The notes under the pieces: generated by a model
The model's database searches: none
Seen by the model: only the letters and a program-made list of their open reading frames with translations
What the model was told of the DNA's origin: nothing
Sequence record: MZ501070
DNA length: 44,295 bases
Source: Escherichia phage GeorgBuechner
Strand: one strand, 5' to 3'
Position numbers and translations under genes: made by a program
Shown here: piece by piece, positions 24,898 to 42,860 of the stretch
How the letters are laid out: every line of letters starts with the position of its first letter
Numbering within the stretch: position 1 is the stretch's first letter

Positions 24898-24950
24898 GAT
24901 GTTTTTCCTTTTTAGTTGGGGGCGGTATTGCCCCCAACGAGTTAACTATA

Positions 24951-24988
24951 TTGCAACCAACCTATTGGTTGCAAGTGAATTTTGCAAC
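24951..24988. promoter_or_regulatory. Inverted-repeat motif TTGCAACCAA-ccta-TTGGTTGCAA followed by conserved TTGCAAGTGAATTTTGCAAC element
   Basis: Perfect 10 bp arms; the downstream 20-mer matches 5821-5840 (TTGCAAGCGAATTTTGCGAT) at 17/20; on the minus strand TTGCAA-18 nt-TATAGT could act as a promoter for gene 24376..24897. Confidence 0.45.
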
Positions 24989-35227: not shown

Positions 35228-35257
35228 TAAAAAGAGGCCCGCAGATTAGCGGGCCGG
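35228..35257 (-). terminator. Rho-independent terminator (minus strand) after the first early gene
   Basis: Minus strand reads GGCCCGC-taatct-GCGGGCC-TC-TTTTT. Confidence 0.65.
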
Positions 35258-35263
35258 AATACA

Positions 35264-35782
35264 TTAATCTTCCAGTTCGAAATAGGTTTCGACGATTTCT
35301 TTTAGCTCTGTGTGGAAGTCTTCGACGTCGTCATCTTCCAGCTTGGCGATTGATTTGATCTCGAACGATTCCAGCAGGTCGTCGAATTCGTCGTTCGCAT
35401 CGTCGTCATCACCACCGGCGATAATCGCGGCATACTGTTTGATTTCGTCGCGCATCTCCGCCAGCGGATCGGCATCTTTCTTACCTTTGCCTTTCGCCGG
35501 TGCTTTTTTGGCCTTAGCCGGTTTTTCGTCTTCGGCGTCTTCGTCGTCGTCATCTTCTACGACTTCTTTTTTGGCCTTACCCTTCGCCGGTGCTTTTTTA
35601 GCTTTAGCCGGTTTTTCGTCTTCGGCGTCATCGTCGCCATCTTCGACAACTTCTTTTTTGGCCTTAGACGGCTTCTTGTCTTCCTGCTTACCAACGGCAG
35701 CGCCAACGGTTTCATAATGCTTTGCAATGGTTTCCAGTGCTACTACGCCGCGAGTGATCAGGTTTACGATTTGCTCAAACAT
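35264..35782 (-). CDS. Acidic/lysine-rich repeat protein, first gene of the leftward early operon
   Basis: 172 aa from ATG 35780-35782 (MFEQIVNL...) with SD GGAG; two ~29 aa tandem repeats KKEVVEDxDDDAEDEKPAKAKKAPAKGK; the longer track ORF is rejected as a 5' leader. Confidence 0.55.
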   Translation of the reverse strand: MFEQIVNLITRGVVALETIAKHYETVGAAVGKQEDKKPSKAKKEVVEDGDDDAEDEKPAKAKKAPAKGKAKKEVVEDDDDEDAEDEKPAKAKKAPAKGKGKKDADPLAEMRDEIKQYAAIIAGGDDDDANDEFDDLLESFEIKSIAKLEDDDVEDFHTELKEIVETYFELED

Positions 35783-35978
35783 GGTATATCTCCGATTGGT
35801 TAAGTTTAGGTGTCGGCAGTTAACTTCGTCGGTGGCCTTAACATATTGCCAGGTTACGCGTTCTCCCGTTCGGGTAGTGGACCTGGTTATATAATCACGG
35901 TTGGGAATCCTGACACTTCGATCCGGCCCCTGCGTTGCCCCTCTCCAGTTTGCGTCCTGCATCCTGTCGACGGGGTGA

Positions 35979-36008
35979 ATAATAGATTGGTTGCAGGATG
36001 GGCGTCAA
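35979..36008 (-). promoter_or_regulatory. Candidate leftward early promoter
   Basis: Minus strand TTGACG - 18 nt - TATTAT; the spacer contains TGCAACCAAT; about 190 nt upstream of the first leftward gene. Confidence 0.4.
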
Positions 36009-36019
36009 CAACTAATTTC

Positions 36020-36055
36020 AAAAAAAAAAGCGCCGAGGCAAAATGCGACGGCGCT
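36020..36055 (-). terminator. Strong rho-independent terminator on minus strand inside the divergent control region
   Basis: Minus strand reads AGCGCCG-tcgcattttgcct-CGGCGCT followed by T10. Confidence 0.65.
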
Positions 36056-36125
36056 AACCAATAAGAGACAATGAGACGGGAATAATTATTACACGCGTGC
36101 GCGCCCGTTTCAATATCCAAAGGAT

Positions 36126-36154
36126 TTGACACCGTGCAGTTTTGGGTGTAGTTT
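36126..36154 (+). promoter_or_regulatory. Candidate rightward promoter
   Basis: TTGACA - 17 nt - TAGTTT about 30 nt upstream of the regulator gene. Confidence 0.4.
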
Positions 36155-36185
36155 CGTTGGCCATTAACCAACTGAGGGCAGAGCA

Positions 36186-36515
36186 ATGAATGTAAACGAC
36201 GCAATCGAAATGTTAACGAAGACTGTTTGCAGTGAGACAAGCCGGTCATGGGCATATACCGATGCCGTGGGGGCGGTGTTATTTGAAATCGAACGACTGC
36301 GGCTTACCGAAAAAGAATTGCGCGCGAAGCTGGAATTACTCAACGGTACGGCAGCCAGCAAGCTGCAAAAGCACAATGAAGAAATGGAAGAATACAAAAA
36401 ACAGGTTATCCGTTTGCGCGAGGAGGGAAAGTCATGGGCGATGATCGCTGAGCTAACCGGAATTAATCAGAGCACCGTGCGCTCATGGGTACGCAATAAT
36501 AAAACTTCTAAGTAA
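36186..36515 (+). CDS. Putative transcriptional regulator with C-terminal helix-turn-helix
   Basis: 109 aa; C-terminal KSWAMIAELTGINQSTVRSWVRN is HTH-like; central coiled-coil-like segment; first gene of rightward operon. Confidence 0.5.
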   Translation: MNVNDAIEMLTKTVCSETSRSWAYTDAVGAVLFEIERLRLTEKELRAKLELLNGTAASKLQKHNEEMEEYKKQVIRLREEGKSWAMIAELTGINQSTVRSWVRNNKTSK

Positions 36516-38790: not shown

Positions 38791-38865
38791 ATGCTGCGCG
38801 CATTGGTTGCCGATATGGGGATTCCCATATCGCTAAAAGATTAAATCTTGCGCGCATTGGTTGCC
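38779..38865. repeat. 32 bp direct repeat x2 flanking a palindrome, overlapping the primase stop
   Basis: TAAAAGATTAAATGCTGCGCGCATTGGTTGCC and TAAAAGATTAAATCTTGCGCGCATTGGTTGCC (2 mismatches) with GATATGGGgattCCCATATC between them; a third ATTGGTTGCC at 38891-38900. Confidence 0.8.
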
Positions 38866-38937
38866 ATTTTGAGTGTTTTTAGCTGGTCGTATTGGTTGCC
38901 GTGTAGTGTAAATATAATGCATAGTTATGCAGTTTTA

Positions 38938-39112
38938 GTGCATAAAGTAAGCGGGACAAAAAGCGGGACAAACAAGGGGCGGGACAAAGCGGGACAGCAC
39001 CCCCGTCCCGCCCCGGATGGCGCGGCTTCCAGAGGAGCGGGACAGGCGGGACAAACCCCAGTCTTTCAGACTAGACGGGGGTCAATGGCCCCCCTCGTCT
39101 GAGACTGAATAA
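38938..39112. repeat. Copy B of the duplicated ~175 bp GCGGGACA-iteron plus hairpin element
   Basis: Near-identical to 11528..11702 with a diverged central ~40 bp; ends in the same imperfect hairpin. Confidence 0.8.
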
Positions 39113-39171
39113 AATCCGGGGATTGCAAAATACACGGCAGCATGATGCGAAGCGCTGTCGTTGGTGAACTA

Positions 39172-39303
39172 GGCAACCAATGCGAGTTGCATTATGCTGA
39201 GTGAAAATGCAGTTTGCAGCCACAGCAGATAGCGATCAACTTTTTCATACGCATGATTAATATTGGTTGCATTCAGCCTGGCACCCTGCTAGATTGGTTG
39301 CAC
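39172..39303. promoter_or_regulatory. Cluster of three GCAACCAAT / ATTGGTTGCA motifs upstream of gene 39326
   Basis: GGCAACCAAT 39172-39181, ATTGGTTGCA 39262-39271, ATTGGTTGCAC 39294-39303 followed by CACCAACGAGAGGA and ATG. Confidence 0.5.
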
Positions 39304-42788: not shown

Positions 42789-42816
42789 ACAAGCCCGGTT
42801 AATTCCGGGCTTTTTA
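42789..42816 (+). terminator. Rho-independent terminator after the lysis-region operon
   Basis: AAGCCCGG-ttaatt-CCGGGCTT followed by TTTATT. Confidence 0.7.
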
Positions 42817-42826
42817 TTGCTTGACT

Positions 42827-42860
42827 CGCAACCAATTATCAGACTATACTGCGACCAATC
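42827..42860. promoter_or_regulatory. Tandem pair CGCAACCAAT / GCGACCAAT upstream of a strong SD
   Basis: CGCAACCAATtatcagactatactGCGACCAATcaACGAGAGGAG followed by ATG 42881. Confidence 0.5.

What the first reader, a model, noticed from the sequence alone, without database searches (positions are those of the whole stretch)
35783..36185. Divergent early control region with a strong minus-strand terminator: candidate small leftward RNA
The 400 bp between the leftward and rightward operons holds candidate promoters in both directions. A 7 bp GC stem followed by T10 on the minus strand (36020-36055) lies just upstream of the leftward -35 element. No minus-strand gene lies to its right, so the terminator would only act on leftward transcripts initiating within 36060-36180, implying a short non-coding RNA antisense to the rightward promoter/leader, or an insulator against convergent read-through.
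Basis: inference. Interest (0 to 1): 0.5.

Follow-up and report, generated by a model that had tools for sequence, protein, structure and literature searches.

The report
Phage small RNA gene plus structured leader
The gap between the two early operons of this E. coli phage (a Dhillonvirus) holds a conserved candidate gene for a ~57-base small RNA that ends at the flagged terminator. Next to it lies an undescribed ~160-base folded RNA at the start of the leftward early message, and virulent phages of several other groups carry the same RNA.

Summary
A 7-bp hairpin (36029-36055) followed by T10 (36020-36029) lies on the minus strand, 11 bp upstream of a leftward -35 box. It is the only A/T run of 8 or more in the 44-kb window.

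A near-consensus leftward promoter with an extended -10 (36113-36085) lies about 57 nt upstream. Promoter, transcript body and hairpin are almost invariant across 153 Dhillonvirus records. One lineage carries two compensatory changes in the stem.

The RNA does not overlap the rightward promoter or transcript, so it is not a cis-antisense RNA. Its unpaired 5' part is complementary in trans to the ribosome-binding regions of the first gene on each side. No experiment has tested this.

The bigger result is in the left half of the flagged region. The leftward leader (35971-35812) is a folded RNA with strong covariation (46 pairs, 97.9% of cells paired, 23 pairs changed on both sides). It matches no Rfam 15 family and is absent from 5,426 E. 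coli genomes.

It occurs once per genome in about 170 virulent siphophage records. It always follows a sigma-70-type promoter and always precedes a different, uncharacterised first gene. Close relatives lack it exactly. Its function is unknown.

The parts
36126..36154 (+). Rightward early promoter P_R: TTGACA, 17 nt, TAGTTT; predicted start ~36159-36161
   Evidence: Sequence. The HK578 record annotates the homologous promoter. The -35 and GGTGTAGTTT are conserved. The -10 is weak (3 of 6), so the scan did not list it.
36156..36172 (+). Palindrome GTTGG(C/T)CATTAACCAAC over the P_R start, holding one TAACCAAC box; operator-like, or a weak 5' hairpin
   Evidence: Conserved in all Dhillonviruses examined except HK578.
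36085..36113 (-). Leftward promoter P_L2: TTGAAA, 17 nt, TGT-AATAAT (extended -10), back to back with P_R
   Evidence: 10 of 12 match with TG. Invariant in 20 distinct control regions and in alignments A3 and A5. Annotated as a promoter in HK578.
36020..36078 (-). Candidate small RNA, ~57 nt (start ~36078/36077, 3' end in the U-tract)
   Evidence: Promoter-to-terminator distance. The body 36077-36030 is invariant apart from two loop positions, while the bases just upstream of the predicted start vary. Present in 153 Dhillonvirus records. No Rfam family reaches its gathering score anywhere in the window; the E-value scan gave only weak sub-threshold hits over this hairpin.
36055..36077 (-). Unpaired 5' region GUCUCAUUGUCUCUUAUUGGUUA (two GUCUC repeats plus AUUGGUUA)
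   Evidence: Unpaired in the MFE fold. Complementary to the left and right translation initiation regions. GTCTC-N3-GTCTC occurs exactly only here in the window.
36020..36055 (-). Intrinsic terminator: 7-bp stem (36055-36049 / 36035-36029) plus U10 (36029-36020). The T-run also sits at -57 to -48 of P_L1, the position of an UP element
   Evidence: Compensatory changes in Ioannina/LM40P1. Annotated 'terminator' in the WF5505 record and listed as 'terminator' under the match in the CS16 record.
35979..36008 (-). Leftward promoter P_L1: TTGACG, 18 nt, TATTAT; predicted start ~35972. Its spacer holds a GCAACCAAT motif (35994-35986)
35812..35971 (-). Structured 5' leader RNA: P1 (35971-35964 with 35819-35812) closes a multi-helix fold with an invariant core
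   Evidence: Covariance-model hit 35809-35977, 163.8 bits, the only hit in the window. Covariation. Homologues. Rfam negative.
35783..35811 (-). CA-rich linker with a TAACCAAT box (35802-35795), Shine-Dalgarno GGAG (35793-35790) and GGAGAUAUAC, before the ATG at 35782
   Evidence: The same AACCAAUC(A)GGAGA layout is seen in leader-less Warwickvirus phages.
35264..35782 (-). First leftward gene, 172 aa, acidic with KAKK repeats; phrog_3127, unknown function
36186..36515 (+). First rightward gene, 109 aa, C-terminal helix-turn-helix; candidate DNA-binding regulator
   Evidence: Pfam HTH_23, Sigma70_r4_2 and HTH_28.

Best explanation
The 403-bp gap is the main divergent early control region of a Dhillonvirus. 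It holds three promoters and two RNA elements.

(1) Small RNA. P_L2 (36113-36085) starts a ~57-nt non-coding RNA that ends at the hairpin plus U10 (36055-36020). The sequence shows the promoter match, the terminator anatomy, near-invariance of the transcript body, and compensatory changes in the stem. Inferred: the RNA accumulates early in infection. Its unpaired 5' region would then pair in trans with the TAACCAAY box and Shine-Dalgarno sequence of the first leftward gene (35782) and the first rightward gene (36186), limiting their translation. The gene looks like a copy of the rightward ribosome-binding region read from the opposite strand.

(2) Leader RNA. P_L1 (36008-35979), 11 bp beyond the U-tract, starts the leftward operon mRNA. 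Its first ~160 nt (35971-35812) form a conserved multi-helix RNA. The data show the fold with covariation, the position at the transcript 5' end, and the exact presence/absence difference between close relatives. They also show that in both phage groups with leader-less relatives, a short 5' hairpin stands in its place. Inferred: it is a portable 5'-leader module that binds a conserved host factor. It would act on its own mRNA (stability or ribosome loading) or act as a decoy. Its ligand or partner is unknown.
For: Small RNA:
- Anatomy and uniqueness of the T10 run.
- Promoter strength: two of three 10-of-12 matches in 12.5 kb.
- 153 records carry the unit at 84-99% identity.
- In 20 distinct control regions, 36077-36030 varies only at two loop positions, while positions 36084, 36082 and 36079 just upstream of the predicted start vary.
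- Two compensatory stem pairs in Ioannina/LM40P1.
- TAACCAAY occurs 5 times in the window, 3 of them in this gap, in the orientation the pairing needs.
- Duplex energies are -17.2 (left) and -14.4 to -23.1 kcal/mol (right), against about -8 to -11 +/- 2.5-2.9 for shuffled small-RNA sequences. BS4-type phages have 16 contiguous pairs.
- Among 126 crude initiation regions of the phage, the right site ranks 1st and the left site 3rd.

Leader:
- 37 distinct sequences; 46 pairs, 97.9% of cells paired (shuffled 79.0%, slid 32-41%), 23 pairs changed on both sides, covariation 0.474 against 0.054 or less when slid (first model).
- One covariance-model hit per genome, and none in leader-less relatives.
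- It follows non-homologous -10/-35 boxes and precedes first genes from different PHROGs: nine hit different families and one hit none.
- Exact absence in Envy, Haito_Bas83, Ioannina and WF5505, and in FritzSarasin and tonijn, where a GGGCG...CGCCC hairpin remains.
Against: No transcript data exist for any Dhillonvirus.

The small RNA and its left target never vary together, so pairing has no covariation support. In the Ioannina lineage the small RNA has a 1-nt deletion and the left box is lost, without compensation.

The right target varies from weak to perfect, and HK578 lacks the box.

An unrestricted sliding-window scan found coding sites with equal or better energies.

AACCAA-type motifs also act at the DNA level here: GCAACCAA occurs 20 times in both orientations. 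The boxes could therefore be protein-binding sites. The T-run could be an UP element of P_L1.

For the leader, no expression platform was found. There is no link to downstream terminators and no shared downstream gene function. The invariant core can be drawn in two ways. The structural alignment was made by hand.
Confidence: 0.6

Rival explanations
1. The P_L2 transcript is a by-product. The hairpin plus T-run insulates P_L1 from the strong upstream promoter (avoiding promoter occlusion) or attenuates it. The T-run serves as an UP element of P_L1. The invariant 23 nt is conserved because it holds DNA sites (TAACCAAT, two GTCTC repeats) for a phage regulator such as the helix-turn-helix protein at 36186-36515.
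For: The T10 lies at -57 to -48 of P_L1. AACCAA-type motifs are clearly DNA-level elements in this genome: 20 exact GCAACCAA in both orientations, one in the P_L1 spacer, and a 24-bp palindrome at 24951-24974. The right-hand box is part of a palindrome over the P_R start. The first rightward gene encodes an HTH protein.
Against: An operator model does not explain why complementarity runs past the box into the Shine-Dalgarno sequence. It does not explain why the left box sits next to the ribosome-binding site, ~170 bp from P_L1. It does not explain why the three boxes have the strand orientation that RNA pairing needs. TAACCAAY differs from the abundant GCAACCAAT type. The stem keeps pairing through double changes, which an UP element would not require.
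Confidence: 0.25
2. One reading: a cis-antisense RNA that overlaps and opposes the rightward promoter or leader.
For: A weak leftward promoter-like site lies further right, at 36216-36189 (9 of 12).
Against: The strong conserved promoter starts the RNA at ~36078, well to the left of P_R (-35 at 36126-36131). The stretch 36114-36185 is the least conserved part of the gap, and in HK578 the stretch between the P_R -35 box and the start of the right-hand gene is replaced by unrelated sequence.
Confidence: 0.05
3. The leader is a ligand-sensing riboswitch aptamer closed by P1, sensing a host metabolite or signal and setting expression of the early operon.
For: It is aptamer-sized, has a multi-helix junction closed by P1 with an invariant core, and lies 25-30 nt before the start codon in unrelated contexts. 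Two alternative pairings exist for the G-rich core.
Against: No conserved terminator or anti-Shine-Dalgarno platform was found, and the Shine-Dalgarno sequence is mostly unpaired in folds. The downstream genes fall in different PHROGs of unknown function, with no shared theme. No Rfam relative.
Confidence: 0.15
4. The leader is a processive antitermination RNA, like HK022 put, that makes RNA polymerase read through terminators in the early operon.
For: It is a cis-encoded structured RNA at the very start of an early operon transcribed by host polymerase. A terminator-like hairpin follows the first gene (35255-35236).
Against: That terminator is equally present in relatives that lack the leader. 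No lambdoid phage such as HK022 appears among the rows listed by the BLAST searches. The spacing to the next start codon is constant, which antitermination does not need.
Confidence: 0.08
5. The conserved sequence 35783-35962 is protein-coding: an N-terminal extension of the first leftward gene, as several GenBank records annotate it.
For: In this window an ATG at 35962 is in frame with the gene and has no stop. Some records, such as BS4 gp62 and KarlBarth gp49, call longer CDSs.
Against: Homologues in other phages differ by 1-nt indels, and in type B the frame hits a stop after 10 codons (read from the sequences). Variation is in paired compensatory positions, not third codon positions. Relatives delete it exactly and keep the same ATG and ribosome-binding site.
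Confidence: 0.02

Closest known systems
Trans-acting base-pairing small RNAs encoded by phages and prophages (for example DicF of Qin, AgvB/AsxR of Stx phages, IsrK of Gifsy-1); from established knowledge
   Same: Short, with its own sigma-70 promoter, an intrinsic terminator with a long U tail, and an unpaired 5' region complementary to ribosome-binding regions.
   Different: Encoded by a virulent siphophage. The predicted targets are the phage's own two first early genes. Dependence on Hfq or ProQ is unknown, and expression is unproven.
Lambda oop RNA and P22 sar RNA (short phage antisense RNAs ending at strong terminators); from established knowledge
   Same: A small terminated transcript in an early control region that opposes expression of a neighbouring regulatory gene by pairing near its ribosome-binding site.
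   Different: Those RNAs overlap their targets in cis. Here there is no overlap, and complementarity comes from a 16-23-nt look-alike of the target site.
Lambda P_R'-6S RNA-t_R' arrangement; from established knowledge
   Same: A constitutive promoter followed closely by a strong terminator, just upstream of a long operon, giving a short RNA by default.
   Different: No Q-like antiterminator or binding element was identified. A separate promoter (P_L1) lies directly after the terminator.
HK022 put antiterminator RNAs
   Same: A structured, cis-encoded RNA near the start of a phage early transcript, with no protein partner encoded next to it.
   Different: About 160 nt with a branched fold, against about 70 nt with two stem-loops. 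No sequence similarity was found, and presence does not correlate with downstream terminators.
Orphan riboswitch candidates and large structured leader motifs found by comparative genomics (Breaker/Weinberg lists: PMC5737381, PMC8632094, PMC11109978). These papers surfaced in a literature search but were not read
   Same: A 5' leader position, closed by a P1 helix, with an invariant core and covarying peripheral helices.
   Different: Restricted to virulent enterobacterial siphophages. Always at the transcript 5' end, before unrelated genes, with no recognisable expression platform. Not in Rfam 15.
5'-terminal stabiliser hairpins (ompA leader, T4 gene 32 leader) and CsrA-bound 5' ends (flhDC); from established knowledge
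   Same: Leader-less relatives carry only a short GC hairpin at the same 5' position. The P2 loop shows CAGGAUG / CAAGGAUUG, which resembles CsrA sites.
   Different: The ~140-nt conserved interior is far more than a stabiliser hairpin needs. CsrA binding was not tested and the resemblance is from memory.

Membership tests
Intrinsic (Rho-independent) terminator | GC-rich hairpin directly followed by a U-tract on the transcribed strand | tested here: met
   7-bp stem (6 G-C), -16.7 kcal/mol, U10 directly after it. It is the only T run of 8 or more in the window.
Intrinsic (Rho-independent) terminator | Hairpin maintained by selection | tested here: met
   Two stem pairs changed on both sides in Ioannina/LM40P1, otherwise invariant.
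Intrinsic (Rho-independent) terminator | Transcripts actually end there | not testable with these tools
   No Dhillonvirus transcriptome was found.
Trans-acting base-pairing small RNA | Own promoter at an appropriate distance | tested here: met
   TTGAAA-17-TGTAATAAT, invariant; variation begins just upstream of the predicted +1. This is a sequence prediction only.
Trans-acting base-pairing small RNA | Unpaired region complementary to target initiation regions beyond chance | tested here: inconclusive
   Ranks 1 and 3 of 126 crude sites; shuffled small-RNA controls reach the observed energy in 0-1.7% of trials, 8% for HK578. There is no covariation, and a genome-wide window scan is not specific.
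Trans-acting base-pairing small RNA | Chaperone binding and regulation of targets | not testable with these tools
   Needs co-immunoprecipitation and reporter assays.
   Small RNA 36078-36020; P_R -35 at 36126-36131, start ~36160.
Any Rfam 15 family | Covariance-model match | tested here: not met
   No hit over the leader at E<=10 on 221 nt. None at gathering score in the window. None at E<=1 in three other phages. Only weak terminator-like hits over the small RNA.
tRNA or tmRNA | ARAGORN detection | tested here: not met
   0 genes in the window.
Riboswitch | Conserved aptamer-like fold closed by P1 | tested here: met
Riboswitch | Expression platform (terminator or Shine-Dalgarno sequestering helix) coupled to P1 | tested here: inconclusive
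   None is conserved; the Shine-Dalgarno sequence is mostly free in single-sequence folds. Only a constant 34-66-nt spacing to the start codon was seen.
Riboswitch | Association with genes of one pathway | tested here: not met
   Ten first genes scanned: nine hit different PHROGs, all of unknown function, and one hit none.
put-type processive antiterminator RNA | Similarity to put, and dependence of downstream terminator read-through on the element | tested here: inconclusive
   No lambdoid phage appears among the listed BLAST rows. The terminator after the first gene is kept in leader-less relatives. Read-through itself is not testable here.
CsrA-binding RNA | GGA motifs presented in hairpin loops, several per RNA | tested here: inconclusive
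   GGA is conserved in the P2 loop in all 37 sequences and in the GGAGAGGRG internal loop. The consensus comparison is from memory, and binding is not testable here.

The most novel reading that the evidence does not exclude
The ~160-nt leader is a new class of portable phage RNA domain. It would be plugged into the 5' hairpin of an early mRNA and exchanged horizontally between unrelated virulent siphophages. It would work by capturing a specific host molecule: a small-molecule signal (a new riboswitch class), or a host protein such as a global RNA-binding regulator or an immune effector (an RNA decoy or anti-defence factor). The neighbouring ~57-nt RNA would then be the first small RNA of a virulent coliphage shown to control both of its own divergent early operons.
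Probability: 0.3. Interest if true: 0.85.

Novelty: new member of a known kind. Interest (0 to 1): 0.62.

Why it matters
Virulent coliphages of this group are widely used, in the BASEL collection, in phage therapy isolates and as test phages for defence systems. Their early regulation is nevertheless unknown.

A small RNA that tunes the first gene of both early operons would be a simple, testable timing device.

The leader is a strongly covarying RNA family that is absent from Rfam and from host genomes. It is shared by at least three phage lineages and is dispensable in close relatives. That pattern is typical of accessory host-interaction functions, so it is a good candidate for a new RNA-ligand or RNA-protein interaction.

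There is also a practical point. Several GenBank records annotate the leader as protein-coding, and this should be corrected.

Tried and rejected
- Rfam scans of the region, the window and three other phages: nothing for the leader, only weak terminator-like hits for the small RNA.
- tRNA/tmRNA scan: none.
- Whole-strand fold of 36010-36185: not more stable than shuffles (z = -1.19), so only the terminator hairpin is meaningful there.
- Sliding-window duplex scan of the whole genome with the small RNA's unpaired region: several coding sites scored as well as the leaders. I therefore restricted the test to initiation regions.
- Antitermination link: the terminator after the first gene is present with and without the leader.
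- Coding reading of the leader: rejected (indels, early stop in other types, compensatory variation).
- First MAFFT alignment plus RNAalifold misaligned P1 and P5. I replaced it with an anchored hand alignment passed to the tools with N in place of gaps.
- My first core model (P3/P4) was superseded by the RNAalifold core. The two cannot be separated with invariant columns.
- BLAST of the leader against 5,426 E. coli genomes: no match. The genome-contig scan gave one mis-binned phage contig.
- Single-sequence folds do not reproduce the consensus fold and show no conserved Shine-Dalgarno sequestration.
- Literature: no Dhillonvirus transcriptome or small-RNA report. The only relevant item is an HK578 escape mutant of the OLD defence system, with a deletion in the gp45-gp46 promoter region.
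- Ideas from memory that were not tested: a resemblance of type A P1 to a type I-F CRISPR repeat, a tRNA-Gly anticodon-loop look-alike (UUCCCAA), and complementarity to 16S rRNA. All were judged to be chance.
Full report
**Context.** The window is a complete-looking genome of a Dhillonvirus, an HK578-like virulent E. coli siphophage. The 1.6 kb around the finding is 95-96% identical to Gluttony_ev152, PTXU06, bov22_1 and others. Genes run rightward from 1 to ~23.7 kb, leftward from ~35.8 to ~23.8 kb, and rightward again from 36186. The gap 35783-36185 is therefore the main divergent early control region. The first rightward genes encode a 109-aa helix-turn-helix protein and a primase-helicase. 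The leftward operon starts with an acidic repeat protein of unknown function. It continues with a DUF2800/PD-(D/E)XK nuclease and an Enc34-type ssDNA-binding protein.

**The observation.** It is correct to the base.
- On the minus strand, AGCGCCG (36055-36049) pairs with CGGCGCU (36035-36029) around a 13-nt loop. U10 (36029-20) follows directly.
- The hairpin is -16.7 kcal/mol in the isolated RNA.
- The consensus scanner skipped it because its loop limit is 8 nt.
- The A10/T10 run is the only homopolymer of A or T of 8 or more in 44 kb.
- The next leftward promoter (TTGACG-18-TATTAT, 36008-35979) begins 11 bp after the run.
- The WF5505 record annotates this hairpin as a terminator, and the CS16 record lists a terminator under the match. 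The HK578 record annotates three promoters here.

**A promoter for the short RNA.** TTGAAA-17-AATAAT preceded by TG (36113-36085) is one of only three 10-of-12 matches in the 12.5-kb leftward region. A second of the three is the promoter just described. It is back to back with the rightward promoter (TTGACA at 36126-36131). The predicted start is ~36078, giving a ~57-nt RNA.

Conservation fits a transcribed functional unit:
- In 20 distinct control regions both hexamers are invariant.
- The three variable positions (36084, 36082, 36079) fall between the -10 and the predicted start.
- The body 36077-36030 varies only at two loop positions.
- In the most divergent lineage (Ioannina, LM40P1) the stem reads AUCCCCG/CGGGGAU. 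Two pairs are changed on both sides and pairing is kept.
- The gap as a whole is more conserved than the flanking genes (compare the identity bands).

**What the short RNA could do.** However, its unpaired 5' part, GUCUCAUUGUCUCUUAUUGGUUA, is the complement of a motif found before the start codon of both flanking first genes. On the left this is UUAACCAAUCGGAGAUAUACCAUG. On the right it is UUAACCAAC(N)G(G/A)(A/G)G... in this phage, and UUAACCAAUAGGAGACAGAACAAUG in BS4, Haito and WF5505.

- TAACCAAY occurs five times in the window. Three are in this gap, with the strand orientation that pairing needs.
- Predicted duplexes are -17.2 kcal/mol (left) and -14.4 to -23.1 (right). The BS4 type has sixteen contiguous pairs. 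Shuffled small-RNA sequences give about -8 to -11.
- Among 126 crudely defined initiation regions of the phage, the right site ranks first and the left site third.
- On the plus strand the small RNA gene reads TAACCAATAAGAGACAATG. This looks like a copy of the rightward ribosome-binding region, transcribed backwards.

These results are suggestive and do not prove the pairing model. The small RNA's pairing region and the left site never vary, so there is no covariation. The Ioannina lineage has lost the left box and has a 1-nt deletion in the pairing region. HK578 lacks the right box. An unrestricted scan finds equally good sites in coding sequence.

**The DNA-level rival.** AACCAA-type motifs are clearly DNA signals in this genome.
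- GCAACCAA, nearly always followed by T, occurs 20 times exactly, where about 1.4 are expected from the size of the window. It appears in both orientations and often in pairs.
- One copy is in the spacer of the leftward promoter (35994-35986).
- Six copies lie just after the primase-helicase gene.
- Two copies form a 24-bp palindrome at 24951-24974.
- The right-hand box is one arm of a palindrome over the rightward start.

The boxes may therefore be protein sites, and the T-run lies where an UP element of the next promoter would be. This reading does not explain three things. Complementarity extends into the Shine-Dalgarno sequence. The left box sits at the ribosome-binding site, far from its promoter. 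The stem keeps pairing through double changes. I give the small-RNA reading about 0.6 and the by-product/insulator reading about 0.25.

**The leader RNA.** A BLAST search of the gap showed that 35824-35960 matches phages unrelated to Dhillonvirus. These are Tempevirinae (Drexlerviridae) such as swan01, JK16, tunus, slyngel, PHB17 and Motto. They also include a Jilinvirus-like group: PT1, Arya, MQ-4, Lumpael, Alux-21 and IME279. Pattern scans of IMG/VR and of metagenomes, plus further BLAST searches, gave 37 distinct sequences. In every case:
- The element is on the coding strand.
- It starts 5-8 nt after a -10 hexamer of a promoter that is not homologous between groups. Examples are TTGACA...TATAGT, TTGCAA-17-TATAGT, TTGACA-17-TAATCT and TTGCAT-17-TATCTT.
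- It ends 34-66 nt, mostly 38-42 nt, before the start codon of a different gene.
- Of the ten first genes scanned, nine hit nine different PHROGs, all of unknown function, and one hit none.

**The fold.** I built an anchored structural alignment by hand and passed it to the tools with N in place of gaps. MAFFT kept all 178 columns.

The peripheral helices covary strongly:

| Helix | Pairs | Pairs changed on both sides |
|---|---|---|
| P1 | 8 | 7 |
| P2 | 4 | 3 |
| outer P5 | 5 | 3 |
| P5 | 5 | 5 |
| P6 (GNRA-type hairpin) | 5 | 3 |

RNAalifold run on the same alignment proposed a different pairing of the invariant core. It includes a clean G-C/A-U exchange (19 against 18 sequences) and places the only freely variable core position in a terminal loop.

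The combined model has 46 pairs and 97.9% paired cells. Column shuffles give 79.0% and slid partners give 32-41%. It has 23 pairs changed on both sides, and covariation of 0.474 against 0.054 or less for slid partners.

Two caveats apply. The alignment was fitted by hand, and the sequences fall into about five recombining types, so cells are not independent events.

A covariance model built from the alignment finds exactly one copy per genome at 136-164 bits. In the window the hit is 35809-35977. It finds none in leader-less relatives or in chance pattern matches.

**What the leader is not.**
- It matches no Rfam 15 family, even at E<=10.
- It is not a tRNA.
- It is not found in 5,426 complete E. 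coli genomes.
- It is not found in 185,579 species-representative genomes, apart from one mis-binned phage contig.
- It is not coding (see rivals).

**Presence and absence.** Envy, Haito_Bas83, Ioannina, LM40P1 and WF5505 are Dhillonviruses with the same promoters, small RNA, terminator and first gene. In them the ~140-nt interior is absent and a short GC hairpin remains.

In Warwickvirus, FritzSarasin and tonijn have the swan01 promoter followed by CACAUAGGGCG-GCACGGCGU-CGCCC. That is the P1 stem closed by a small loop. AAACCAAUCAGGAGA and the start codon follow. swan01 has the full element plus an extra 60-aa gene at that point.

The element therefore behaves as a domain inserted into, or deleted from, the tip of a 5'-terminal hairpin. 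The CA-rich linker with an AACCAAU box before the Shine-Dalgarno sequence is shared between the two phage groups.

**Function of the leader.** This is inference only. Four properties point to a portable module that binds a conserved host component:
- a fixed position at the 5' end;
- an invariant core;
- unrelated downstream genes;
- a patchy distribution in early regions.

It would act on its own mRNA (stability or ribosome loading) or act as a decoy. Three observations bear on the alternatives:
- I found no expression platform.
- The terminator after the first gene is kept in leader-less phages, which gives no support to antitermination.
- Conserved GGA motifs (CAGGAUG or CAAGGAUUG in the P2 loop, GGAGAGGRG in an internal loop) resemble CsrA sites and Shine-Dalgarno sequences. 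That comparison is from memory and is a lead, not a test.

**Literature.** No paper in the library describes transcripts, small RNAs or structured RNAs of Dhillonviruses. [quoted passage not shown] The authors link the mutation to replication initiation (10.64898/2026.07.10.737580).

**Verdict.** The small RNA is likely to exist but is not a cis-antisense RNA. The same gap also holds a previously uncatalogued, strongly supported structured RNA family. Both elements are new members of known kinds, and expression and mechanism remain to be shown by experiment.

Noticed in passing
window 5792, 5805, 16439, 21903, 24953, 24972(-), 26532, 26549, 29506, 33083(-), 33099(-), 35994(-), 38810(-), 38864(-), 38899(-), 39173, 39270(-), 39301(-), 40003, 42828: The 8-mer GCAACCAA (usually GCAACCAAT) occurs 20 times exactly, where about 1.4 are expected from the window size. 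It appears in both orientations and often as pairs 13-17 bp apart. Copies lie inside promoter spacers (P_L1; TTGACT-cGCAACCAAT-...-TATACT at 42814-42850). Six copies cluster at 38803-39301, just after the primase-helicase gene. It is probably an operator or iteron of a phage DNA-binding protein or of the origin.
   Followed up: partly
window 24945-24974: A perfect 24-bp palindrome, TTGCAACCAA-CCTA-TTGGTTGCAA, overlaps a minus-strand promoter-like site (TTGCAA-18-TATAGT). A GC hairpin and a ribosome-binding site follow. It looks like a regulated middle promoter.
   Followed up: no
window 35783-35962; for example L033 1485-2183, L038 771-1397, L036 662-1396: Several GenBank records extend the first leftward CDS upstream or add small CDSs across the gap (gp46 of SO-1, BS4 gp62/gp63, KarlBarth gp49/gp50). 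In leader-bearing phages the extension runs over the structured leader; Ioannina (L036) lacks the leader but is also extended upstream. These are probably mis-annotations.
   Followed up: partly
window 35264-35782 (minus): The first leftward gene encodes an acidic protein with tandem (D/E)-rich and KPAKAKKAPAKGK repeats. Its length varies from 142 to 173 aa between relatives, and the welsh record marks a repeat_region inside it. It falls in phrog_3127 and has no Pfam match.
   Followed up: partly
window 35236-35255 (minus): A second strong terminator-like hairpin (GGCCCGC...GCGGGCC plus UCUUUUU) lies directly after the first leftward gene, inside the operon. It is conserved whether or not the leader is present, and PTXU06 annotates it as a terminator. 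Most leftward transcripts may stop after one gene.
   Followed up: partly
L005 2200-2586 against L058/L059 ~540-600: In Warwickvirus the leader arrives together with an extra 60-aa gene (phrog_8121), compared with relatives that have only a P1-like hairpin. The mobile unit can therefore be RNA plus a small ORF.
   Followed up: partly
window 35784-35793 (minus): The left ribosome-binding site GGAGAUAUAC is, from memory, the same 10-mer as the phage T7 gene 10 ribosome-binding site. Several other genes of this phage use GGAGAC (34975, 29243, 26487, 40069, 40219), which is complementary to the GUCUC repeats of the small RNA.
   Followed up: partly
L030 ~1680-1705, L031 ~1675-1695, L034 (minus) just downstream of the leader: In the Jilinvirus-like group a GC-rich hairpin without a U-tract (for example GCCCCGG-UAC-GCCGGGGC) lies between the leader and the ribosome-binding site. 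It may be a processing or stabilising element.
   Followed up: no
HK578 (L003) equivalent of window 36114-36185: HK578 has a different first rightward gene (429 nt against 330 nt) and an unrelated right leader without the TAACCAAC palindrome. It keeps the small RNA and the left box. A published OLD-escape mutant of HK578 has a deletion in this promoter region (bioRxiv 10.64898/2026.07.10.737580).
   Followed up: partly
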